This document shows, piece by piece, positions 4,439 to 27,573 of a stretch of DNA of 43,639 nucleotides. How positions within the stretch are numbered: position 1 is the first letter of the stretch; the number at the start of each line of letters is the position of its first letter. The stretch lies in the IMG/VR virus record IMGVR_UViG_2617270952_000006, one strand, 5' to 3'. The DNA comes from a virus. Taxonomy: Duplodnaviria; Heunggongvirae; Uroviricota; Caudoviricetes. The translations under genes were made by a program, and so were the position numbers. Below the pieces are notes generated by a model. The model saw only the letters and a list, made by a program, of their open reading frames with translations, had not been told where the DNA came from and ran no database searches.

Positions 4439-6451
4439 TCAAATCAGCCCATAAATAACATTATGCAAATGAAGAGAGCCTGCTTCACCGGAAACATCAA
4501 AATCAATCCTAACTTTGCTTGCTCCAGGAGGAACAATATCTATTAATGCGTAGAAATTCCATGTGGAGCCTGATGGAATTGTAAATGTTGCTTTTCCCTG
4601 AACAGAGTTCCCTTCTTTATCAAAAAACTCAATACCAGAGATTGTTGTCACTTGATTCTTAGCCCAAAAACCTAACTGGAAATATCGTCCTGGTGAGCAG
4701 TCTGAGCACTCCTGATAAAATTTTGCAGATGCTCCTATAGATGGTATTGCTACATACAAAGACCTGGAAAACATAATATCATTTGGAACATCAGAATCCG
4801 TTCCTGCTGTAACAACACCTGAACCAGTTTGTTGAAGGCTCCAGTTAGAGTAGTTTAAAAACTGTCCACTTCCATTTGATAGCGAATTTATGTATGGACT
4901 AACTATGTTCCCTTTATCCCACTGAGTTGTTATAAATCCAGATCGTGGATAGCATCCATATGACATTATTTTTTTACTATTACCTCCAACTACCTGTCTA
5001 GTTGCTGATCCTGTCGCCAAATCCATTTGGTCAAATAAAGGCAATGAGCAATTTGTTAATGAAAGTACTGAATCATCATTTACAACAAACGGAACTGAAC
5101 TATATCCAGAGGGAGTAAGTAGCGTTGTATCTTTAATGCTTATTCTTGTGCTTCCAGATGCAGAGAACGCCACAAAGCTTTGACCTGGCTGAAACTCAAT
5201 ATTTCCACTTGAGTAAACAACGGTTGCGTTATCTTCAATAAAAACAGTAGAATCAAAATAACCTTCTTTCTTACCTGCTGGCATAGAGCAACAGTTAAAA
5301 ATAAATTGACCATTTCTAATTGTCAATGGACCTCCATTATCAACAACCCAACAATTATTAAATGTCATTACCTCGCCTGAGTTTGATGGAGAATTAAATA
5401 TAATTGTGTTGTTTAGACATCTTGATATTGTTACTTTGTCAAATAAAATTCTATATGAATTATCAAGAAACTCAATTCCAGCAGATGATATGAATGAAGA
5501 ATTACTTATTCTTAACTCTGATAATTCACCAGTGCCAATACCTCCAAGTAAAATCTTTTTAGATCCTAGCATCTTAAAAGATATGCCATCTAAAATTGAT
5601 GTTGCATTTATTTCATCCCTATTATCATAAGAAATATTAGAGTTACTTAACCTAATTGCATAATCACCTGATATCCCATTAATCTCAGTTAAAACGCATT
5701 TATTCGATCCTCTTAACCCACCTTTCGCGAAATCAATATCAATTAAAGACGAGAATTCTCCACTACATGGAACAACGCAATCATAACCTAGAGAGTTTAT
5801 TTTATTAATAAATAATGCAATATCCCCAGCGCCGCTGTAACCAGCGTCATATACAGAAAACTCAAGGCTTGGGTTTATTCTCTTCCAATTTACACCGTTA
5901 CCTTCTAAAACCATTACGTTATCAACTGCAATTGACTTGTCTACAGCTACAACAAACCCACCACCAAGTTCGAGTCCGGATACGTATGATTTTAAATATA
6001 ATTTATCAGATATCGACATTCCTTGTATATCTTTAAGGGAGTTAGCGCTCTCTACCATTCCAATGTATTTGTATCCAATATTACTTGATAGTTTTATAGA
6101 TAACTGATCAGGATCATACTTCAGCACATTAGGAAAATAGAACTGCTGCGCACCGTACGCATCATAAACAGCCATAGAATGGCCTTGCACGGTTACGAAT
6201 TTGGCAATCTGTCCGTTATATACCGGGTAACCAGCAGCGTTAATGATGATTGGTTGCGATACAGGAACGTGAGAACCGTCTTCGTTCTCTACATAAACCT
6301 GAATCTGGTTTTCAGGATTTACCGGGTCAGTGTCAATTTTTCCGATATAAATTTTGCCATTGGCATTTGCTTTAAACGAGCGAGCTAAAGTAAATAACTG
6401 ACTTGGTTGTGAAACAACAACGTTGTATAATTGTTCTGGCATAATAAACAT
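4439..6451 (-). CDS. Tailspike protein: P22 gp9-like N-terminal head-binding domain fused to a distinct beta-helix receptor-binding/depolymerase domain
   Basis: N-terminal ~110 aa align with P22 tailspike (..NVVVS.P...F...[34 protein letters not shown]....P.IINAAG...YNGQ......VQGHSMA.YDA.G.Q......NVLKYDPDQ); remainder is N/S/G-rich repeat-like sequence typical of parallel beta-helix; visibly A+T-rich. Confidence 0.85.
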
Positions 6452-7075: not shown

Positions 7076-8011
7076 TCAGTAGTTATGTACTGAAGGAGGT
7101 AATTCTTTATTCTTAAGTCTCATCCATGCGGAAAGATTCGTTGGTCCGTCTGGCTCATTAATATCAACATCTCGTGTGCGATTGATTAAAACGTCTCTCG
7201 CCATTCCGATAACATACGAGAACTCATGACCGTAGTCGTAGCATCTGCCTGAATAGTTCGATTGAATTTGTTTTAGCGCCGGATACAGTTCGCGGAATAA
7301 TGCCTGTGAGCGGTTGGCATAATCCCATAACCATACAAGGCTGTTTACTTCTTTTGCAGAAAGCTCGTTGGTTTTCTTCTCTTGTTTGCCAATGAACTCA
7401 CCTTCAAGTGGAACTCGAGCTGCAAGTGATAGTGCTTCGGTAAACTGCTCCTCACTGATTTCTTTGTATGAACATCCAAAATGGGATTTCAGTGACGACC
7501 ACATGGTGATCATCGCCTTAGCCTGTTTTTCCTTTGGCAGAGACTGACCGCGACTCATGACGAGTTGTTTAATGGCTTCCTGCTGTTCAGTGGTGATTTT
7601 ACCCGGCAACGCCTTTTTAGCTTTGCGCGGGTTAACTACATGGCCTTTAGTCCAGTAGTCATGCAGCACGCTAAAGCATTCCTCCTGGTACTGAATCAGT
7701 TTATCGCGGATGTCAGCACGAACTTTCTCAGGGTTGATGCTGAACAGCCATCCATTTAACTTCTTCAAAGGAAGGCAGAGTAGCTTACGAAGCTTTCCAT
7801 CAGCAGCAACCATATTCATATGAATACATTTGAACTTATCTAGTTGTTTCATAAGTTTTTGTTGCTGAGTACCCCAGCTCATTCCGAGGTTTTCAACGAT
7901 TGGCTTCATCGCAACATATGCAACTCCGGCAGCCATGGCGGTGATAATTTGCTGACCGTTGAATGGTACGTAAGAGGTGTTCACTGCTTCTAAAATTGCT
8001 ATACTATTCAT
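7076..8011 (-). CDS. ant: Antirepressor Ant (P22 immI-type)
   Basis: Large ORF immediately downstream of arc on the same strand; start taken at ATG 8011 ([17 protein letters not shown]..); ORF track extends to a GTG at 8077 that overlaps the upstream ORF. Confidence 0.7.
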
Positions 8012-8073
8012 GTTGGTTTTTCTCCACGGATTTACTGACAACCGAAGCCCTGACTGTTCCCGCAGTTGGGGCT

Positions 8074-8256
8074 TCACTGTTTTATGTTCACATCTAACAT
8101 TGTTTTTCTAGAATTTAACTCTTTCCCCATCGCTTCAACGCAAAGAGATACACAACTACTACAGATAAATATCTCTGCTTTAGCGCGAATCAACATTGCA
8201 CATTCATGCTGAGGCTTTCCGCAGAAGGAGCACTTAAAGCCATCTTCTTTATTCAT
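8074..8256 (-). CDS. 60-aa protein with ClpX-type C4 zinc-ribbon (ZBD-like) motif
   Basis: [43 protein letters not shown].. parallels the ClpX N-terminal zinc-binding domain (CSFCGK.QHE..LI......IC..CV.LC); start ATG overlaps arc stop (ATGA); preceded by GGGGGTGG RBS. Confidence 0.6.
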
Positions 8257-8405
8257 ATCGCCACCCCCTCTTTCTTCAGGCTGTCTATCAGGCGCTTGAT
8301 AACCTCTGAGTTAAACGACCTGCACTCTTCCTTTGCCCTGCTACCGATAGCATCCTTTAACGACTGCGGCATCCTTACCAAAATCTTACTTATTTCTTTC
8401 TCCAT
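8253..8405 (-). CDS. arc: Arc-like ribbon-helix-helix repressor
   Basis: 50-aa product [50 protein letters not shown]; RHH signature (..RSFNSE..) as in P22 Arc; GGAGGG RBS upstream of ATG 8405. Confidence 0.7.
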   Translation of the reverse strand: MEKEISKILVRMPQSLKDAIGSRAKEECRSFNSEVIKRLIDSLKKEGVAI

Positions 8406-8519
8406 GTTACCCTCCACACAAACAACTCTTTTCGAATACAAAAGATAGCAAAGTGAGTATATCTAGTCAAAATTTTTTTGCATACACTTTGATATCAAAT
8501 TGAATACCAAAGGTGTGTT
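8406..8519. promoter_or_regulatory. Divergent mnt/arc control region (Pant/Pmnt analog) containing a perfect 12-bp palindrome TTTGATATCAAA at 8488-8499
   Basis: Intergenic region between divergently oriented RHH repressor genes; palindrome seen directly; A+T-rich. Confidence 0.4.
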
Positions 8520-8768
8520 ATGGCAAAGGGTGTGTCAATTTCTCCAACTACGGTAAGAATCCCTGAATCTTTACGCGAGGCTCTTGCTGTTAGAGCATCA
8601 AAAAATGGTCGCTCTGTTAACTCCGAGATCGTCATGATTTTGCAAGCCGCGATTGATGAAGATAGGTCGCCAAAGTCAGTTGAGTCATTTGCTCAGCAAG
8701 AAGCTGACAAATTCAAAGAGGCGCTGCTGGAGACGCTGAAAACCATGTATGGTAAGGATGATAAATAA
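8520..8768 (+). CDS. mnt: Mnt-like ribbon-helix-helix repressor
   Basis: 82-aa product with N-terminal RHH (..RIPESLREALAVRASKNGRSVNSEIV..) and C-terminal helical region, divergent from arc as in P22 immI. Confidence 0.75.
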   Translation: MAKGVSISPTTVRIPESLREALAVRASKNGRSVNSEIVMILQAAIDEDRSPKSVESFAQQEADKFKEALLETLKTMYGKDDK

Positions 8769-9304
8769 TGCTGCACACAATTCATTTCTTATGCCCCGTT
8801 AACACCGCCACTGTTGGGCAACTTCAGAACCACTGTCTCACCGCATTATCTCAAGGCGCAACTGAATTAAATATCCATATATCAAGTCAGGGAGGGGAAA
8901 CTGCCGCTGGTTTTACTGCGTATAACTTTCTTAAGTCACTCCCTGTTACCGTTAGAACTCACAACATAAGCAATGTTGAATCCATAGCTAATATCGTTTT
9001 CCTGGCTGGCTCAGAACGTTTCGCAAACCCATTATCAAGATTCCTGTTACATCCTCTATTATGGGGCTTTGCCTCCCCAGCCGCCGACCATGCCAGACTG
9101 AGAGAGTACGGGAAATGCCTCGATAACGATCTTGATCGCTTCGTTGAGACGTTCAATATCGACATCGGAACCCATATTAGGTGGGCATCCCTGATAGCAG
9201 ACTCGACCATTTTGGATGCTAACAAGGCTCTTGAGCATGGCATAATTAATTCCATAAAAACTGCAAGGCTGGCATCCAATCAGGCAAACTGGTGGGTTGT
9301 TTGA
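8768..9304 (+). CDS. ClpP-family (peptidase S14-like) serine peptidase homolog
   Basis: By-eye alignment to E. coli ClpP: IHISSQGGETAAG vs INSPGGVITAG; NVESIANIVFLAGSERFANPLSRFLLHPL vs [31 protein letters not shown] (candidate Ser and His aligned); start ATG overlaps mnt stop (TAATG). Confidence 0.65.
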   Translation: MLHTIHFLCPVNTATVGQLQNHCLTALSQGATELNIHISSQGGETAAGFTAYNFLKSLPVTVRTHNISNVESIANIVFLAGSERFANPLSRFLLHPLLWGFASPAADHARLREYGKCLDNDLDRFVETFNIDIGTHIRWASLIADSTILDANKALEHGIINSIKTARLASNQANWWVV

Positions 9305-9360
9305 TGGGTAAATCATGATTACTCCTTATAAAAAACCCACCTGACGGTGGGGTTCATTTC

Positions 9361-9780
9361 TTAATCTTGCTTCGTGGAAGGTATAAGAGATGCATTTGCC
9401 TCTTTTGGCTTCAATGTATACATCCCACCATTAAATGGATCAACAGCAAGCCAACCAATTAACCCACCAAACACAAGGTTTCCACCAATATACCAACCAT
9501 TAGCATTGGCTTTGATTGGCAGGGTAACTGGTTCGTACCCATCCTTCTCCATAGTGATCTGGTAGCTCTTTTTGCCAAAATAGCTACCATCTGACTTGGC
9601 GAGTGTTACACCTTGTGGAGTCTTACCTTGCGCAACAATCACACCCGATTCATCTTTTACCTTAAAGCTCGCGCCAGAAGGATTGCTGTTCACTTGCACA
9701 AGTTGCGTTTCATCACCAACAATAGTTGCGCACCCAGATAACATGATAACGCCAGCAACGACGCTAATAATCCTCTTCAT
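9361..9780 (-). CDS. Lipoprotein with PEGA-like domain and C-terminal glycine-zipper hydrophobic segment
   Basis: Signal peptide with lipobox (MKRIISVVAGVIMLSGC); PEGA-like stretch (..VQVNSNPSGASFKV..GKTPQGVTL..DGYEP..); C-terminal ..WYIGGNLVFGGLIGWLAV..; A+T-rich. Confidence 0.55.
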   Translation of the reverse strand: MKRIISVVAGVIMLSGCATIVGDETQLVQVNSNPSGASFKVKDESGVIVAQGKTPQGVTLAKSDGSYFGKKSYQITMEKDGYEPVTLPIKANANGWYIGGNLVFGGLIGWLAVDPFNGGMYTLKPKEANASLIPSTKQD

Positions 9781-9897
9781 ATCAATTTCCATATTTAAAA
9801 AACCGGAAACATCCTAATGACAAAACATTCAAATGTGAAGTAGGCAAAAGATGTTTACTTTTTTCATGGTATCCTGCTCAAAACTAAGGAGGTTGGT

Positions 9898-10125
9898 GTG
9901 AAGCGATGGTTCCTCATAATTACTGTTTTCGCGATCATTTACACTATTTTCCCTGCATTAAAAGCACCAATGCAAATAATTTCACTAGCAATAATTTCGA
10001 TTGGTGCTTTCATTGCAGTAGCCGTACTTGTGTTTAAGGTTTTAAAGTTTTTAGTTTGGCTATCAAAAGATGATGGATGCAAAGTTCATCAAGAAAAAGA
10101 AGGCAAAATAACCAAAGTTGACTAA
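9898..10125 (+). CDS. Small predicted 2-TM membrane protein
   Basis: 75-aa product with two hydrophobic helices; GTG start 7 nt after AAGGAGG RBS. Confidence 0.45.
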   Translation: MKRWFLIITVFAIIYTIFPALKAPMQIISLAIISIGAFIAVAVLVFKVLKFLVWLSKDDGCKVHQEKEGKITKVD

Positions 10126-12245
10126 CTGTCACTAGCGAGCCATGTAATAATCCCCGTGCGGGCAATGGTTTTTGCTTCATCTGTTGATAAGGTTTTCTCC
10201 CATCTCTTAAATGCCCCAGATTGCATCAGTTTCCTTTCTATTGCGCGTCTCACTTCTGCTCTGTCTACTGGTGCGTTTTGCAGGCGAAATAGCATTGATT
10301 TAAACTCAGGAGAAGATAGCAGAGCATCAGCAGCCTTTATCCTGCTTGTTTTCCCTGACATCAATGCAGACGTTATCACCCCTGTTGCACCTACACCAGG
10401 GAGACCAGATAAGCTTGTAATACCTTCCGCCGCAGCAGCTTTTGAGGCTATTCCATAAATTTTTGCGAGACTACCCTTTTCTTTCAGAAAGTTATTAACT
10501 TGCTGATCCACAAGACTACTAGCATACTGCTTACCAGTATTGAGTCTATTCATAGCCTTAGCTGCTTGATAAATCGTATCAAGGCGCTTTGATGCATCTG
10601 TGCCAATAGCATCACGGAGAGCCTTCATATTGGCCCCATTGCGTGACATTCCGTTATACCATTTTACAAATCCATCAACTCCTAATTGCTGACCAGGTGA
10701 TTTGGCATAGCTGGTAAATGCTTTATTCATTGAGGTGAGCGCAACTTCCTGCCGCATATCCTTTGGAATCGACTTCATTAATTGCCTAAAGTCGCCACCG
10801 TTTCCTTTTGCCATATTAACAACAGCACTTTCAACTTTTGGAATTGCTGATTGCTGAAGTTTTCTACCCAAGACGGTTACAGCATCATCTTCAATGGATT
10901 TTCGTTTTTTTACCAACTCCTTACCAAGCGTCCATAATTCCCCTGCGCCATATTTTTCTGCGACAGCCTGTTGGTCATCTGTTATGGCTGCATATAACTT
11001 TTTAAGAACACCTGTTTCTTCATCCTTGAATGGACCAGAGCCTTTGCCAATAGCTTGTCCAACCTGCTTTCTAGCGAGATCTAAACGCCCATACGTTGGC
11101 AAGGTGTTTGGATCAAGTCGGTTCAATGTCCGCTTCATTATTGGAGATAATTCATCAATTCCACCTATGTCATCAGCAAAATCCTCTAAAAAATTCAATG
11201 TATTAGTTGCCTCAATCCGGTCTCTTACAGGAACCTTTTCGGCAATTTTGTTGTAGATGTTATCTGACTGATTTTGTAATGATGAAATGGTTTTATCAAA
11301 ATTATCTGCAAGCCTGTCAGAAACCAGTTGCTTATCAAGGCTTCCCCCAAATGAAGTTATCATTTCATCAGCTTTTCTTCCTAATTCAGTAATAAAACGC
11401 TTATGCGCCTCACTAATCTCTGTTCCAGGGAGACTTGCCACTGCATTATCAAGAGCCCTGACAGCAGGATTATTAGAGATCATGCCTGGAGTGGCATAAT
11501 TTTCCAGTTCTAGCTCACGAATAGCATTTATCGCGTTAAAATCAGGATTAACTTCATCGGCGAAATCTTGAATAGCTCGTTGCCCGCCGATAAATTTATT
11601 GTCCATTGCGCCAGCAGCTTTCTTTAACGTTGCTTTAGATGATTTACTACCCATCCCTACGGATGAGCGATAAATATCTCCGGCACTATTTTTAATTTTT
11701 CCTGCAATCTTCCCAAGCGCTGGACCAACAATCTCGGCTACAGGGCCAGCCACAGCGCCAATAGCAGCGCCGGAAGCAACATCGCTATTTGTTCCATTGG
11801 CTACAATAGCCCCTTCTCCAGCACCAAGCCCTGCGGCGGCAGCCAGCCTTGCCGCCCCTTTCGGAACCTGAGAAATAATCCCACCACCACTAACAAATGG
11901 CGCTGCTTGTCCAACGAACTCACCAACATCTTGTGCGGTTGATGGTTTTGCCGCTAACTTCTGCTGTAGAGACTGAATTGCGGCTTGCTCTTCTGGTGTC
12001 ATGTCCTGAAACAGGCCAACACCTTTACCAACATCCATCAATCCACTGAGAACGCCATACATAAAACGGTCGAAGCCGTTAGCATTATTAACAACATTTT
12101 CCTGTCTGGAATTTTCCTCTAGTGAAACCAAAGGAGATTGCTGCTGTTCTGGTTGTGCATCAAGCACAAAGCCATCAGGAAGCTGTGAGTTATCAGGCTG
12201 TTCATCCAGAACAAACCCCTCTGGTAAACCTACATTGGTTGCCAT
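10122..12245 (-). CDS. Ejection (E) protein, P22 gp16-like by position and size
   Basis: 707-aa ORF at the distal end of the virion gene block, following gp20-like and gp7-like genes in P22 order. Confidence 0.7.
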
Positions 12246-13579
12246 TGTCCGTTCCTGTAAATAATTTTCTGACCAGTTTTAGGATTTTTCGCGGTCATAC
12301 CTTCTCGAAATGTTTGACCGCCAGATGTTGCTTGTTGTGTCTGTTGTTGCGCAGGCTGCTGAATATCTTCATACAGCTTGGCTTTTCTGGATTGCAATTG
12401 CTTAGTTAGTCCGCTGGGGAGAGAATCCCCATAAGTTGAAAGATAATCATCCATTTGCTGATTAAACTTTTCTCCTTCAGTATTTGCCATCAGTTTTGAG
12501 GTGTTGATTAAGTCTTGGACTTGCTCATTATTCAGCATCTTGCCGTTAGATAATTGGCTAACATAGTTACCAAGTGTGCCAAATATTCCATCAGTGCGTT
12601 TTACCTGCACTTGCTCACCTTCGCGTACCACAGATTGCGGATCCAGCGATTTCATATAGTTGAAAATCATTCCCAACTGCGCGGCTGGAGTGTTGCGCTT
12701 CCCAAGGGCTTGTAGGTTGTCAGAAGCACTGCGCATTGCAGAATAATTCTTTGAGAACCCATTAATATCACTATTCAGATCTCGAACAAGTTTTGGGTCA
12801 ATCTTTCCGCTTTCCTGTTGTTTCATCCCTAATTCCTGCAACTTCAGGGCTACGTTATCATTATGCATTTGTGCCCGCTGAGCCCTGTCTAGTTGAGCGT
12901 TTTGGATATTTGCCCATCCTCTCGCGTTCTCCATGTCAGCCTGACGAATGCTTTCATCCAATCGCCCTTTCTCAAGTTGGCGACCAACCATCTTATCCTG
13001 ATAATCCAGCATTTTATCCGGACCAACAGCCCCTAGCGTCATAGTAGTCAGCATGTGTGATAGCTGCTCTGGATTCTGAATACCTGTCTGAATCATCCAG
13101 TCAGCATTCGCCCCCACGCGATTTAACCTGTCCTTGTTGTCAGTAATGAATTTACTGTAGGCTTCCGGTCCCTGAGAAAGAGCGACGTTAGCCCTCATGG
13201 CTAAATCGCCCATATCGTTGCGTTGCTGCTCATTAAGACCGGAAAACGCCTGTTGTGCCTGTGCAACAAACGCTGGATTTTCCTGGGCAAACTTAAATAG
13301 TCCCGATGGATCACCAGAAGCCCATGCATCAGCGTGAACCTTATTGAACGCACTAATCGCTTTCTGTTGCTGTTCCTGATTGTAAATATCAGCAACTCCA
13401 GCCAGACCACGTAACGCGGTCAGACCAACGTTATTTGCCCCTGAGCGAGCCAGTTCATTGTTTTCGCGGATCAGACCAAGCGTTGCGTTAATGTCGCTTG
13501 CCTTTGGCGCATTCTCATTTTGCGTACCGATGCCAGCCAGAAAACCACCAGAATTAATACCCTGTTGCCACGTAGCCAT
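12230..13579 (-). CDS. Ejection protein, P22 gp20-like
   Basis: 449-aa ORF between gp7-like and gp16-like genes; Q/N/A-rich composition typical of P22-like internal proteins. Confidence 0.7.
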
Positions 13580-26460: not shown

Positions 26461-26898
26461 TCATCGAAGGCATTGCGTCCTGATGTACTCCTGCAGGTAG
26501 TTAACCTGCGCGGTTATCCTGTCGATTCCACTTCTGAGACGGTAATAATTGAGTTCAGCATCTGCTGTAAGTCTTGGGCTTTCTCCATCGCCCATGCTGC
26601 TGGCTCCGGTCGTTGGCTTTGCACAGGTGGCGGCGACTTGCAGGCGCTTACGACCAGCAGAAACATCAGCACGGAGGCTTTCGATAGTCGCGTTAGCATC
26701 AGCAAGCTCCTTTGTGTATCTGGCGTCGAGTTCTGCTACATCACGTTGACGCTTCTGCATATCAGCGATTGTGGATGCGGCTTTGTCGCGCTGGGCTTTG
26801 TAGGCGATGGCGTTATCACGGTAATGATTAACAGCCCATGACAGACAGACGATGATGCAAATAACCAGAGCGGAGATAATCGCAGTTACCCTGCTCAT
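26461..26898 (-). CDS. Rz: Rz i-spanin
   Basis: N-terminal TM anchor ([21 protein letters not shown]) then coiled-coil periplasmic domain; start overlaps endolysin stop (ATGA). Confidence 0.8.
26514..26705 (-). CDS. Rz1: Rz1 o-spanin, embedded in Rz in alternate frame
   Basis: Lipoprotein signal (..[10 protein letters not shown]) followed by proline-rich short mature region, entirely within Rz. Confidence 0.7.
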
Positions 26899-27398
26899 TG
26901 TTGCCCCCACAAACAGACCTCACGCTCAATCTCACGACGAGTCATCAGGCCTTTCCATTGCTTACCGCCAGCGTATGCCCAGCGACGTAGCTGGTCACAT
27001 GCGCCCTTGATATCGCCCTGGTTTATTTTGCGAAGAAGAGTAGATGTTCTGAAATTGCCTGCGCCCACGTTATAGACGAACGAGTAAAGAGCGCCGCGCG
27101 TTGTTTCCGGTATATCGACTTTGATGTACGGGTTAATTTGTCTGGCTACCGTGGCAAGGTCTTTATTCAGGAGGGCTTTGCATTCTGCTTCGGTATACGT
27201 TTTACCGGGAATGATGTCTTTTCCTGTATGCCCGTGACATACAGTCCATACGCCAACAATATCTTTGTATGGTATGTAGCTGACACCTTCCAGACCATCG
27301 TTACCACTTGGCCCAGTGATTAACACAGATGCTATAGCAATAGCCCCGCCACTTATCGCCGCTATTACGCTATTTCGTAGTGCCGGTGACATTGCCAT
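26895..27398 (-). CDS. SAR endolysin (glycoside hydrolase family 24 lysozyme with N-terminal signal-anchor-release domain)
   Basis: Gly/Ala-rich weakly hydrophobic N-terminus (..[19 protein letters not shown]..) then lysozyme catalytic E-8x-D-5x-T pattern (..[23 protein letters not shown]..). Confidence 0.85.
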
Positions 27399-27573
27399 TC
27401 AATCTGTCCTCGCGCTCTTTGCGCTTGTAGTACCAGTTGATGCCAAATGTGCCGACAGTACAAAGAATACCAATGATGACAGCCCAGTCATTCAGGGAGA
27501 GAATGCCACCCATCGCAGTCAGTCCTCCGAAGCTGTAACTGAACCATTCTCTGATTTTGTCCATACGGTACAT
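27370..27573 (-). CDS. Pinholin-type class II holin with dual-start motif
   Basis: 67-aa protein MYRMDKI.. with two TM segments and charged C-terminus; overlaps SAR endolysin start, as in phage 21-type lysis cassettes. Confidence 0.75.

What the first reader, a model, noticed from the sequence alone, without database searches (positions are those of the whole stretch)
9361..10125. PEGA-like lipoprotein and convergent small 2-TM protein between the ejection-protein genes and immI
This A+T-rich interval breaks the otherwise co-linear minus-strand late gene block. It encodes a lipoprotein (lipobox LSGC) with a PEGA-like beta domain and a glycine-zipper C-terminal segment, and a 75-aa two-helix membrane protein on the opposite strand. 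Envelope-targeted lysogen proteins at this position are typical of superinfection exclusion (P22 sieA occupies the analogous locus), but these products do not resemble the exclusion proteins I can recall.
Basis: partly seen in the sequence, partly recalled or inferred. Interest (0 to 1): 0.5.

Follow-up and report, generated by a model that had tools for sequence, protein, structure and literature searches.

The report
Two envelope-protein morons beside ejection gene
A P22-like E. coli prophage carries two small accessory genes of untested function at the spot where phage P22 keeps its superinfection-exclusion gene sieA: an outer-membrane lipoprotein borrowed from a large, unstudied bacterial family, and a 75-residue two-helix membrane protein.

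Summary
Both ORFs are real and annotated by RefSeq. The two-helix protein is 9898-10125(+), 75 aa. The two genes diverge from a 117-bp A+T-rich spacer. Only the small gene converges on the gene-16-type ejection gene, overlapping it by 4 nt, which is the position and orientation of P22 sieA.

The lipoprotein is phage epsilon34 gp15 (PHROG 6823, function unknown). It has the lipobox LSGC with Ala at +2, a confidently modelled transthyretin-like beta-sandwich and a Gly-rich hairpin. It belongs to a very large proteobacterial family that sits in ordinary chromosomal contexts in many genera. It has also been captured by at least 75 P22-like contigs and by lambdoid siphophage prophages, including the HK97 gp15 exclusion-moron slot. 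It has a conserved promoter-like site and its own terminator.

The 75-aa gene (PHROG 7294) is confined to Escherichia and Salmonella. It is one of at least six interchangeable envelope-protein genes at this junction and travels with one 707-aa gene-16 type.

Neither protein resembles Cor, SieA, Imm, Bor or TraT. Superinfection exclusion is a reasonable hypothesis based on position, and it fits the small protein better than the lipoprotein. It is untested. I rate this an ordinary accessory locus of modest interest.

The parts
9336..9351 (.). Bidirectional intrinsic terminator, CCCACC-GTCA-GGTGGG followed by TTTTTT on the minus strand. It ends the lipoprotein transcript and, on the plus strand, the mnt-like/ClpP-like operon.
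   Evidence: The same element is annotated as a rho-independent terminator in epsilon34.
9361..9780 (-). Lipoprotein gene, 139 aa (epsilon34 gp15 family, PHROG 6823). It encodes signal peptide MKRIISVVAGVIMLSG|C, Ala at +2, a transthyretin-like beta-sandwich (residues 25-93 and 121-131) and a Gly-rich hairpin (95-113).
9811..9839 (-). Promoter-like site for the lipoprotein, TTCACA-N17-TAGGAT. It is conserved in every genomic context examined. The cassette homology starts exactly at the -35 hexamer when no small ORF is present.
   Evidence: alignment A2.
9781..9897 (.). A+T-rich divergent spacer (GC 0.325). It carries the lipoprotein promoter and the shared 5'UTR of the rightward gene. It includes a possible extended -10, TGgTATCCT, which is my reading and was not found by the scan.
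9885..9893 (+). Shine-Dalgarno sequence TAAGGAGGT, 5 nt upstream of the GTG start. The UTR, SD and GTG are shared by five unrelated alternative ORFs in related prophages.
9898..10125 (+). 75-aa two-helix membrane protein (PHROG 7294). It lies convergent to and overlaps the ejection gene by 4 nt, in the sieA position and orientation.
10122..12245 (-). Flank: 707-aa gene-16-type ejection (DNA transfer) protein (PHROG 6704). It is only about 23-24% identical to P22 and epsilon34 gp16. The 75-aa gene is nearly always linked to this type.
8520..9304 (+). Flank: mnt-like ribbon-helix-helix gene (8520-8768) coupled to a ClpP-like ORF (8768-9304). This is the immI side of the cargo island and is transcribed toward the shared terminator.

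Best explanation
The interval holds two independent accessory genes ('morons') in the hypervariable cargo island between ejection gene 16 and the immI region of a P22-like E. coli prophage. Both are probably expressed from the repressed prophage, and both place small proteins in the cell envelope.

Gene 1 is an outer-membrane lipoprotein. It was captured almost unchanged from a widespread proteobacterial chromosomal family. It has its own promoter-like site and terminator, and it has spread among short-tailed P22-like phages and long-tailed lambdoid phages.

Gene 2 is a 75-residue inner-membrane helical hairpin, predicted N-in/C-in with a 20-residue charged cytoplasmic tail. It occupies the sieA position and is co-inherited with one particular gene-16 allele.

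The most likely role is superinfection exclusion at the DNA-delivery step. The hairpin protein would act like P22 SieA, T4 Imm or HK97 gp15, disturbing assembly or function of the incoming ejection-protein conduit at the inner membrane. The lipoprotein would act at the periplasmic face of the outer membrane. It would be held there by its lipid and the Gly-rich hairpin, and would bind a conserved envelope component that incoming phages need.

Shown here: gene structure, targeting signals, fold, family distribution, cassette boundaries and positional equivalence.
Inferred: expression in lysogens, membrane location, and the exclusion function itself.

My separate estimates are 0.8 that these are lysogen-expressed envelope accessory genes, 0.4 that the 75-aa protein excludes phages, and 0.3 that the lipoprotein does.
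For: - Position: P22 sieA abuts gene 16 convergently, exactly as the 75-aa gene does here. [quoted passage not shown]
- Slot contents: in 75 P22-like contigs carrying the lipoprotein, the slot abutting gene 16 holds one of six unrelated small envelope proteins or nothing. These are a signal-peptide protein (18 contigs), a lipoprotein (16), two one-helix coiled-coil proteins including the HkcB-like one (11 each), a 62-aa two-helix protein (4) and the 75-aa protein (2). Nine contigs have nothing there, and four have extra or unresolved ORFs.
- Linkage: the 75-aa gene sits next to the 707-aa gp16 type in 21 of the 22 loci where the downstream gene is identifiable. Its other neighbour varies between loci.
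- Other phage types: lipoprotein homologues at 68-80% identity lie between the tail chaperone T and tape-measure genes of HK97-like E. coli prophages. That is the slot of the HK97 gp15 exclusion moron (PMC3594210). Others lie next to tape-measure, K/I or I/J tail-tip genes in other siphophage prophages.
- Moron signatures: the promoter-like TTCACA-N17-TAGGAT is conserved across all contexts, with homology starting exactly at the -35. The gene has its own terminator here, and its homologue has one in the ED1a prophage. Related phages show presence/absence and swap polymorphism.
- Not receptor-specific: the lipoprotein occurs with at least 16 tailspike sequence clusters plus 25 singletons. This fits a conserved target rather than one O-antigen.
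- Coding support for the 75-aa ORF: it is open in all 25 copies, has a strong SD, and its N-terminal variants carry only conservative hydrophobic changes.
Against: - No experiment or expression data bears on either gene.
- There is no detectable homology to Cor, SieA, Imm, gp15/YebO, Bor, TraT or any PADLOC defence model.
- The lipoprotein is 50-78% identical to chromosomal, non-phage homologues across Proteobacteria. It shows no obvious phage-specific divergence, unlike gp15 compared with YebO. This favours retention of a cellular envelope function.
- Adjacency to DNA-delivery genes may simply reflect where insertions are tolerated.
- Linkage of the 75-aa gene to one gp16 type is also explained by physical overlap, or by an antisense-RNA role.
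- dN/dS for the 75-aa ORF is uninformative, ranging from 0.07 to 1.3 at very low divergence.
- No consensus promoter was found for the 75-aa gene.
Confidence: 0.4

Rival explanations
1. The lipoprotein is a host-derived envelope-maintenance or fitness factor that the prophage supplies to E. coli, which lacks a core copy. It would work like lambda Bor/Iss (serum resistance) or the Gly-zipper outer-membrane stabilisers SlyB and YfgH. It would have no specific role against phages.
For: - The family is very large: 5715 50%-identity clusters at E<=1e-3.
- It sits in ordinary chromosomal contexts: rimJ-LIPO-murJ in Photorhabdus, mmuM-LIPO-acetyltransferase in Pantoea/Erwinia, ldhA-LIPO-ydbH (read from N-terminal sequences), and next to sap-like ABC transporter genes at 78% identity to the phage copy.
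- Conservation is high, with 30 invariant columns among 26 diverse members.
- In three Pasteurellaceae loci an OMP beta-barrel gene ends 10-17 bp upstream, and one protein is a fusion to an OmpA-type barrel.
- Gly-rich outer-membrane lipoproteins are known stress stabilisers (bioRxiv 10.64898/2025.12.22.696046).
Against: - There is no sequence or Pfam relation to Bor, SlyB or YfgH.
- Repeated capture by unrelated phage types at sites beside DNA-delivery genes, including the gp15 slot, is not predicted by a pure fitness role.
- The two roles are not mutually exclusive.
Confidence: 0.35
2. The rightward transcription unit acts mainly as a cis-antisense RNA against the 3' end of the gene-16 mRNA of incoming or resident phage. 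This would resemble STnc6030 of the P22-like prophage BTP1. The 75-aa ORF would be secondary or incidental.
For: - In BTP1, an antisense RNA over the 3' end of the DNA-injection gene confers phage-specific exclusion (PMC7067206).
- No intrinsic terminator follows the 75-aa stop codon before the transcript enters gene 16. The nearest weak candidate is about 200 nt inside the gene.
- The unit is almost always linked to one gene-16 allele.
Against: - The ORF has a strong SD, is open in all 25 copies, and keeps its two-helix hydrophobic character through N-terminal replacement.
- PGAP annotates it.
- Five alternative protein-coding genes use the same UTR, SD and GTG start, which argues for a slot that expresses proteins.
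Confidence: 0.1
3. The genes serve the phage's own lytic cycle. The lipoprotein would be a unimolecular spanin (N-terminal lipid anchor plus C-terminal hydrophobic segment, like T1 gp11), and the 75-aa protein a class II holin or antiholin.
For: - The architectures are superficially similar: a lipobox plus a late hydrophobic stretch in a protein of about 139 aa, and two helices with a charged tail in 75 aa.
Against: - The prophage already has a complete lysis cassette elsewhere: holin 27370-27573, SAR endolysin 26895-27398, Rz 26461-26910 and embedded Rz1 26514-26705.
- The lipoprotein has its own promoter-like site and terminator, and the 75-aa gene runs opposite to the late operon.
- The hydrophobic stretch is too weak for a transmembrane helix (hydropathy about 1.1). 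It is followed by strands that fold back onto the sandwich at pLDDT about 90.
- The family is mostly chromosomal.
Confidence: 0.03
4. One or both genes are silent hitch-hikers, recombination debris in a tolerant intergenic region with no selected function in the lysogen.
For: - The region is a mosaic hot-spot with many swaps.
- The pair co-occurs in only 4 of 5426 genomes.
- dN/dS for the small ORF is uninformative.
Against: - The lipoprotein variant is intact in 123 of 5426 complete E. coli genomes and at least 75 viral contigs at 96-100% amino-acid identity, with conserved promoter-like elements.
- The 75-aa ORF is intact in 34 E. coli genomes. One Salmonella-named cluster of it is seen on 619 contigs.
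Confidence: 0.1

Closest known systems
P22 SieA (inner-membrane superinfection-exclusion protein)
   Same: The 75-aa gene has the same genomic position and orientation: convergent to and abutting ejection gene 16, on the strand opposite the late operon. It is also a small polytopic membrane protein (PMC10883804).
   Different: There is no sequence similarity. It has 75 aa and 2 helices against 162-164 aa and 3 predicted helices. Its function is untested.
HK97 gp15 moron (YebO-derived exclusion protein between tail chaperone and tape measure)
   Same: Homologues of the lipoprotein occupy the same T|tape-measure slot in HK97-like prophages, with their own terminator. Like gp15, the gene derives from a bacterial chromosomal family (PMC3594210).
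   Different: The protein is unrelated: an outer-membrane lipoprotein with a beta-sandwich against a one-helix inner-membrane peptide. The phage copy has not visibly diverged from chromosomal copies, whereas gp15 has a diverged C-terminus.
Cor / T5 Llp / F-plasmid TraT (outer-membrane lipoproteins that block phage entry by binding an OM receptor protein)
   Same: It is a small lipoprotein encoded by a mobile element and predicted to be sorted to the outer membrane. It shows a weak genomic link to 8-stranded OM barrels in Pasteurellaceae and one fusion protein.
   Different: The only similarity to Cor is in the signal peptide: PHROG 1119 matches residues 5-24, and NCBIfam Cor scores 13 bits against a cut-off of 31. 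There is no Pfam TraT hit. It is not linked to any one receptor-binding protein.
epsilon34 gp15 / PHROG 6823 and PHROG 7294
   Same: These are direct orthologues. The lipoprotein matches PHROG 6823 at 2e-86 and epsilon34 at 96% nucleotide identity. The 75-aa protein matches PHROG 7294 at 1e-48.
   Different: Nothing differs. Both families are annotated 'unknown function'. [quoted passage not shown]
SlyB / YfgH glycine-zipper outer-membrane lipoproteins
   Same: It shares the parts: a lipid anchor, a Gly-rich hydrophobic hairpin and a small beta domain. A plausible role in the outer-membrane inner leaflet follows from that.
   Different: There is no sequence or Pfam relationship. The domain order is permuted, with the hairpin inserted inside the sandwich. 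It has only one GxxxG.
T4 Imm
   Same: By my recollection Imm is about 83 aa, very hydrophobic, has two membrane helices and blocks DNA injection. The 75-aa protein is similar in size and topology.
   Different: No PHROG or Pfam similarity was detected. Imm comes from a virulent myovirus and is expressed early in infection, not from a prophage.

Membership tests
Bacterial lipoprotein (SPase II substrate, Lol-sorted to the outer membrane) | Positively charged n-region, hydrophobic h-region, lipobox [LVI][ASTVI][GAS]C, and no Asp at +2 for outer-membrane sorting | tested here: met
   The sequence is MKRIISVVAGVIMLSG|C-A-T. Cys17 and Ala18 are invariant in 26 homologues. Lipidation and localisation themselves cannot be tested with these tools.
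Pfam PEGA (PF08308) / transthyretin-like fold | Score at or above the Pfam gathering threshold; prealbumin-like beta-sandwich | tested here: inconclusive
Moron (Juhala et al. 2000; PMC3594210) | Independent transcription unit with its own promoter and terminator | tested here: met
   For the lipoprotein, TTCACA-N17-TAGGAT is conserved in all contexts and the terminator is at 9336-9351. These are computational results only. The 75-aa gene has an SD and a shared UTR, but no consensus promoter or terminator was found.
Moron (Juhala et al. 2000; PMC3594210) | Present, absent or replaced among otherwise collinear relatives; composition differs from flanks | tested here: met
   Swaps and absences occur across 75 plus 24 viral contigs and sequenced phages. 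GC is 0.33-0.34 for the spacer and 75-aa gene, at the 1.3rd percentile. The lipoprotein CDS is 0.438, only slightly low.
P22 SieA family (types A-C) | Sequence homology to SieA; three predicted transmembrane helices; about 160-200 aa | tested here: not met
   BLASTP gives no alignment. The protein has 2 helices and 75 aa. P22 SieA found no homologue in any of the 104 related contigs.
P22 SieA family (types A-C) | Location between gene 16 and gene 9 of a P22-like prophage, convergent to gene 16 | tested here: met
   PMC10883804. This shows positional analogy only.
Cor exclusion lipoprotein (NCBIfam NF047972 / PHROG 1119) | Score above the equivalog cut-off over the mature protein | tested here: not met
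   It scores 13 bits against a cut-off of 31. The PHROG match covers only signal-peptide residues 5-24.
Known anti-phage defence proteins (PADLOC-DB) | Match to any defence-system model | tested here: not met
   There are no hits for the lipoprotein. For the 75-aa protein there is only a 10-bit, E 0.095 match to a generic 4TM effector.
Unimolecular spanin (T1 gp11 type) | Lipobox plus a genuine C-terminal transmembrane helix; gene in the lysis cassette; no separate Rz/Rz1 | tested here: not met
   The hydrophobic stretch is weak and folds back onto the sandwich. The gene lies outside the lysis cassette, and Rz/Rz1 are present at 26461-26910.
Gly-zipper OM lipoproteins (SlyB/YfgH; Pfam Gly-zipper families), Bor, TraT | Pfam family match | tested here: not met
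   No such family appears at E<=0.1.
Superinfection exclusion (functional class) | The prophage-expressed protein lowers infection by incoming phage at adsorption or DNA entry | not testable with these tools
   This needs plating-efficiency, adsorption and K+ efflux assays.

The most novel reading that the evidence does not exclude
The lipoprotein would found a new class of outer-membrane, lipoprotein-based blockers of phage genome delivery. A housekeeping proteobacterial envelope module would have been recruited unchanged by both short-tailed and long-tailed temperate phages and placed beside their DNA-delivery genes. It would act on a conserved envelope partner, possibly OmpA-type barrels, rather than on a specific receptor. 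The 75-aa hairpin would be a new SieA-like inner-membrane blocker matched to one gene-16 allele. The shared UTR/SD/GTG junction would be a dedicated swap site for exclusion cassettes.
Probability: 0.18. Interest if true: 0.6.

Novelty: new member of a known kind. Interest (0 to 1): 0.33.

Why it matters
If either protein blocks phage entry, it would add a new protein family to the few known exclusion systems that act at the genome-delivery step: SieA, gp15, Imm, Ltp and Cor. That would help explain why only about a third of P22-like phages carry sieA (PMC10883804). The others may carry functional substitutes in the same slot.

The lipoprotein also gives a route into a very large, wholly uncharacterised family of proteobacterial envelope lipoproteins. 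Its presence in 2.3% of complete E. coli genomes makes it relevant to predicting phage host range. If it proves to be a fitness factor instead, it would be one more lysogenic-conversion gene, and the finding would be routine.

Tried and rejected
**Searches that gave nothing informative**
- Sequence searches of the lipoprotein against PDB, as a single sequence and as a profile, gave only chance matches or generic beta-sandwich matches.
- Foldseek against PDB and BFVD gave nothing significant except one unnamed viral homologue. The afdb50 library was unavailable.
- Pfam scans of ten long family members looked for informative fusions. Nine have only Pro/Ala-rich tails, and one is fused to an OmpA-type barrel.
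- Cluster-name look-ups returned only 'hypothetical', 'PEGA domain-containing' and a doubtful JGI 'YceK' label.
- Literature searches for PEGA lipoproteins in prophages or outer membranes found nothing relevant.

**Analyses that led nowhere**
- The search for a conserved neighbourhood across 80 genomes found only lineage-specific synteny, so there is no operon partner to use for guilt by association.
- A jackhmmer search for OM barrels next to the gene found only the three Pasteurellaceae loci.
- dN/dS on the 75-aa ORF had too little divergence to be informative.

**Ideas rejected**
- The u-spanin or holin role, because a complete lysis cassette exists elsewhere.
- The idea that the two genes form one system, because they assort independently.
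Full report
**What is there**

The window is a P22-like (Sf6/HK620-type) prophage of E. coli. It is 99.9-100% identical over the finding to strain APEC20/16.

The gene order from right to left is:
- the late operon on the minus strand, ending with ejection genes 12230-13579 and 10122-12245;
- a 75-aa ORF, 9898-10125(+);
- a lipoprotein ORF, 9361-9792(-);
- a bidirectional terminator, 9336-9351;
- a ClpP-like ORF and an mnt-like gene on the plus strand, 8520-9304;
- arc, a ClpX-zinc-finger ORF, sar RNA and ant, 7076-8441;
- the tailspike, 4439-6451.

PGAP annotates both ORFs of the finding as hypothetical proteins. The lipoprotein starts at M5 of the long ORF, giving 139 aa and 9361-9780. PGAP, the PHROG match and all homologues agree on this.

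The two genes diverge from a 117-bp spacer. Only the 75-aa gene converges on the ejection gene, with a 4-nt overlap. The low G+C belongs to the spacer (0.325) and the 75-aa gene (0.342), which together fall at the 1.3rd percentile. The lipoprotein CDS is 0.438 against a window mean of 0.467.

**The lipoprotein**

The signal peptide and lipobox are MKRIISVVAGVIMLSG|CAT. Cys17 and Ala18 are invariant. Ala at +2 predicts Lol sorting to the outer membrane, by the established +2 rule.

AlphaFold with 26 homologues gives a mean pLDDT of 78.9:
- residues 25-93 form a confident beta-sandwich (pLDDT 83-97);
- residues 95-112 form a low-confidence helical hairpin made by the Gly-rich segment;
- residues 121-131 form two strands that return to the sandwich at pLDDT about 90.

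The protein is PHROG 6823, function unknown, at E 2e-86. At 96% nucleotide identity it is epsilon34 gp15. [quoted passage not shown]

**The family**

An exhaustive profile search finds 5715 50%-identity clusters at E<=1e-3 and 206 at E<=1e-30. A scan of species-representative genomes finds homologues at 50-78% identity. They occur in Enterobacterales, Pasteurellaceae, Halomonadaceae, Pseudomonadales, Betaproteobacteria and beyond.

The neighbourhood is conserved only within lineages, and it is ordinary chromosome in these cases:
- Photorhabdus: MFS transporter, GNAT acetyltransferase, LIPO, MurJ;
- Pantoea/Erwinia: amino-acid permease, homocysteine methyltransferase, LIPO, acetyltransferase;
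- Lonsdalea: EAL protein, LIPO, lipoprotein, MtfA-like;
- one Enterobacteriaceae genome: ldhA, LIPO, ydbH;
- an Erwiniaceae genome: next to sap-like ABC transporter genes, with a copy 78% identical to the phage copy.

The ldhA/ydbH, MtfA-like and sap-like labels are my reading of the ORF sequences and were not checked by Pfam.

In three Pasteurellaceae genomes an OMP beta-barrel gene ends 10-17 bp upstream of the lipoprotein gene. One metagenomic protein is a fusion to an OmpA-type barrel. This is a weak lead towards outer-membrane barrels.

All E. coli hits that I traced to a genomic context are prophage-borne, so E. coli appears to lack a core copy.

**Capture by phages**

The P22-like variant, at 96-100% amino-acid identity, is on at least 75 IMG/VR contigs. 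It always lies between the gene-16 homologue and mnt/arc/ant. It is intact in 123 of 5426 complete E. coli genomes.

More distant copies, at 68-80% identity, lie inside the tail operons of siphophage prophages:
- between tail chaperone T and the tape measure in HK97-like E. coli prophages (ED1a and others) and in IMG/VR contigs;
- upstream of the tape measure in Proteus;
- between I and J, or between K and I, in Pseudescherichia and Phytobacter prophages.

The T|tape-measure site is the slot of the first described moron, HK97 gene 15, which encodes an inner-membrane exclusion protein (PMC3594210).

The lipoprotein cassette has clear moron signatures:
- Its intrinsic terminator is at 9336-9351.
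- A terminator follows the ED1a homologue in mid tail operon (read directly from the sequence).
- A promoter-like TTCACA-N17-TAGGAT lies at 9839-9811.
- In an alignment of eight contexts this promoter-like site is conserved. Homology begins exactly at the -35 when gene 16 is the direct neighbour. A divergent copy keeps TTCACg and TAaGAT.

The lipoprotein occurs with at least 16 tailspike clusters plus 25 singletons, so it is not tied to one O-antigen receptor.

**The 75-aa protein**

It has two hydrophobic helices, 5-23 and 27-45 (the second stretch extends to about 55). The N-terminus is MKR, the loop is the short KAPMQ, and a 20-residue charged tail follows. The positive-inside rule therefore predicts an N-in/C-in inner-membrane hairpin.

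A strong SD, TAAGGAGGT, lies 5 nt before the GTG start.

It is PHROG 7294, function unknown. Only 21 close homologues were found among 5.8 billion proteins, and all those with a source name are from Escherichia or Salmonella. It is present in 34 of 5426 complete E. coli genomes and in phages EC.P3 and E212.

The ORF is open in all 25 copies. A variant N-terminus uses an ATG start and has 9-12 changes, all conservative and hydrophobic. dN/dS is uninformative.

It shows no similarity to SieA or to any other annotated family.

**The slot**

In P22, sieA lies convergent to and 22 nt from gene 16, followed by orf59a and mnt. The 75-aa gene therefore has exactly the sieA position and orientation. 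The lipoprotein does not.

[quoted passage not shown] Only 22 of 66 P22-like phages carry it (PMC10883804).

Among the 75 lipoprotein-bearing contigs, the ORF abutting gene 16 is one of six unrelated small proteins, all envelope-targeted:

| Slot occupant | Features | Contigs |
|---|---|---|
| 129-aa protein | signal peptide | 18 |
| 171-aa protein | lipoprotein | 16 |
| 107-aa HkcB-like protein | one helix plus coiled coil | 11 |
| 109-aa protein | one helix plus coiled coil | 11 |
| 62-aa protein | two helices | 4 |
| 75-aa protein | two helices | 2 |
| nothing | - | 9 |

The remaining four contigs carry one of the first three occupants together with extra or unresolved ORFs.

Five of these genes share an identical 5'UTR, SD and GTG start, and homology breaks at the start codon. 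This marks a fixed cassette-swap junction driven from the same divergent spacer.

The 75-aa gene is next to the same 707-aa gene-16 type in 21 of the 22 loci where the downstream gene is identifiable. That type is only 23-24% identical to P22 and epsilon34 gp16. Its other neighbour varies:
- the lipoprotein;
- an orf59a-like gene;
- a SocA/Panacea two-gene cassette, as in EC.P3, with Pfam 87 bits;
- antirepressor-like genes, by my reading;
- a C-terminally anchored coiled-coil protein.

The lipoprotein and the 75-aa gene co-occur in only 4 of 5426 genomes. They are independent cassettes, not one system.

**Interpretation**

The anatomy fits lysogen-expressed envelope accessory genes, and I put that at about 0.8.

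Superinfection exclusion at the DNA-delivery step is the most economical hypothesis for the 75-aa protein, at about 0.4. The grounds are its sieA position, its membrane-hairpin architecture (similar to T4 Imm, from my own knowledge) and its linkage to one gp16 allele.

For the lipoprotein, exclusion (about 0.3) competes evenly with a retained cellular envelope function supplied as a fitness factor (about 0.35). The phage copies are barely diverged from chromosomal ones.

Lesser rivals:
- An antisense-RNA role for the rightward transcript. The precedent is BTP1 STnc6030, which overlaps the 3' end of the injection gene and excludes BTP1 (PMC7067206). Here no terminator precedes gene 16.
- A lysis role. 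I reject this because a holin, SAR endolysin, Rz and Rz1 are present at 26461-27573.
- Silent hitch-hiking.

**Verdict**

The exclusion interpretation is a sound positional hypothesis. It applies better to the small protein than to the lipoprotein, and it is untested.

Both genes are already catalogued as unknown-function phage families, and the region is a known cargo hot-spot. This is therefore an ordinary accessory locus with some useful new context:
- the size and chromosomal origin of the lipoprotein family;
- its recurrence in the gp15 slot;
- the shared swap junction;
- the linkage of the 75-aa gene to one gp16 type.

Noticed in passing
window 8074-9304: The immI region is expanded. An mnt-like RHH gene (8520-8768, +) overlaps the start of a ClpP-like 178-aa ORF (8768-9304; PF00574, 46.6 bits). 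A 60-aa ORF that is only a ClpX C4 zinc finger (8074-8256, -; PF06689, 43 bits) lies between arc and ant. This may be a proteolysis-based layer on antirepressor control.
   Followed up: no
L006/L007 14376-15160 (E. coli ED1a-type HK97-like prophage): The same Arc-family plus ClpP-like gene pair sits inside the tail operon of a siphophage prophage, next to a Bro-N/P22_AR_C antirepressor. The immI-like module therefore moves between phage types.
   Followed up: no
window 8012-8078 (+): sar antisense RNA, Rfam RF00262 at 87.7 bits. This confirms a P22-type immI region.
   Followed up: yes
window 9867-9900; alignment A2 of L091-L106: Five unrelated small ORFs in related prophages share an identical 5'UTR, the SD TAAGGAGGT and the GTG start. 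Homology breaks exactly at the start codon, which marks a fixed junction for swapping envelope-protein cassettes.
   Followed up: partly
L002 2786-3663 (phage EC.P3): Where this window has the lipoprotein, EC.P3 has a two-gene cassette. One gene encodes a SocA/Panacea antitoxin-domain protein (PF13274, 87 bits) and the other a 140-aa partner of unknown family. This is probably a toxin-antitoxin or abortive-infection module.
   Followed up: partly
L006-L008 12261-13424: HK97-like E. coli prophages that carry the lipoprotein homologue also carry a porin gene (PF00267) inserted between the tail genes M and L.
   Followed up: no
L037, L038, L051 about 7400-8400; protein P0163: In Pasteurellaceae an OMP beta-barrel gene (PF13505) ends 10-17 bp upstream of the lipoprotein homologue. 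One metagenomic protein fuses the lipoprotein module to an OmpA-type barrel. This is a weak hint of a functional link to small OM barrels.
   Followed up: partly
window 10126-10350 (+): No intrinsic terminator follows the 75-aa gene, so its transcript should run antisense into the 3' end of the ejection gene. In prophage BTP1 an antisense RNA at the equivalent place confers exclusion (PMC7067206).
   Followed up: partly
window 26461-27573: A complete lysis cassette is present: a class II-like holin (27370-27573), a SAR endolysin (26895-27398), Rz (26461-26910) and embedded Rz1 with lipobox VSAC (26514-26705).
   Followed up: yes
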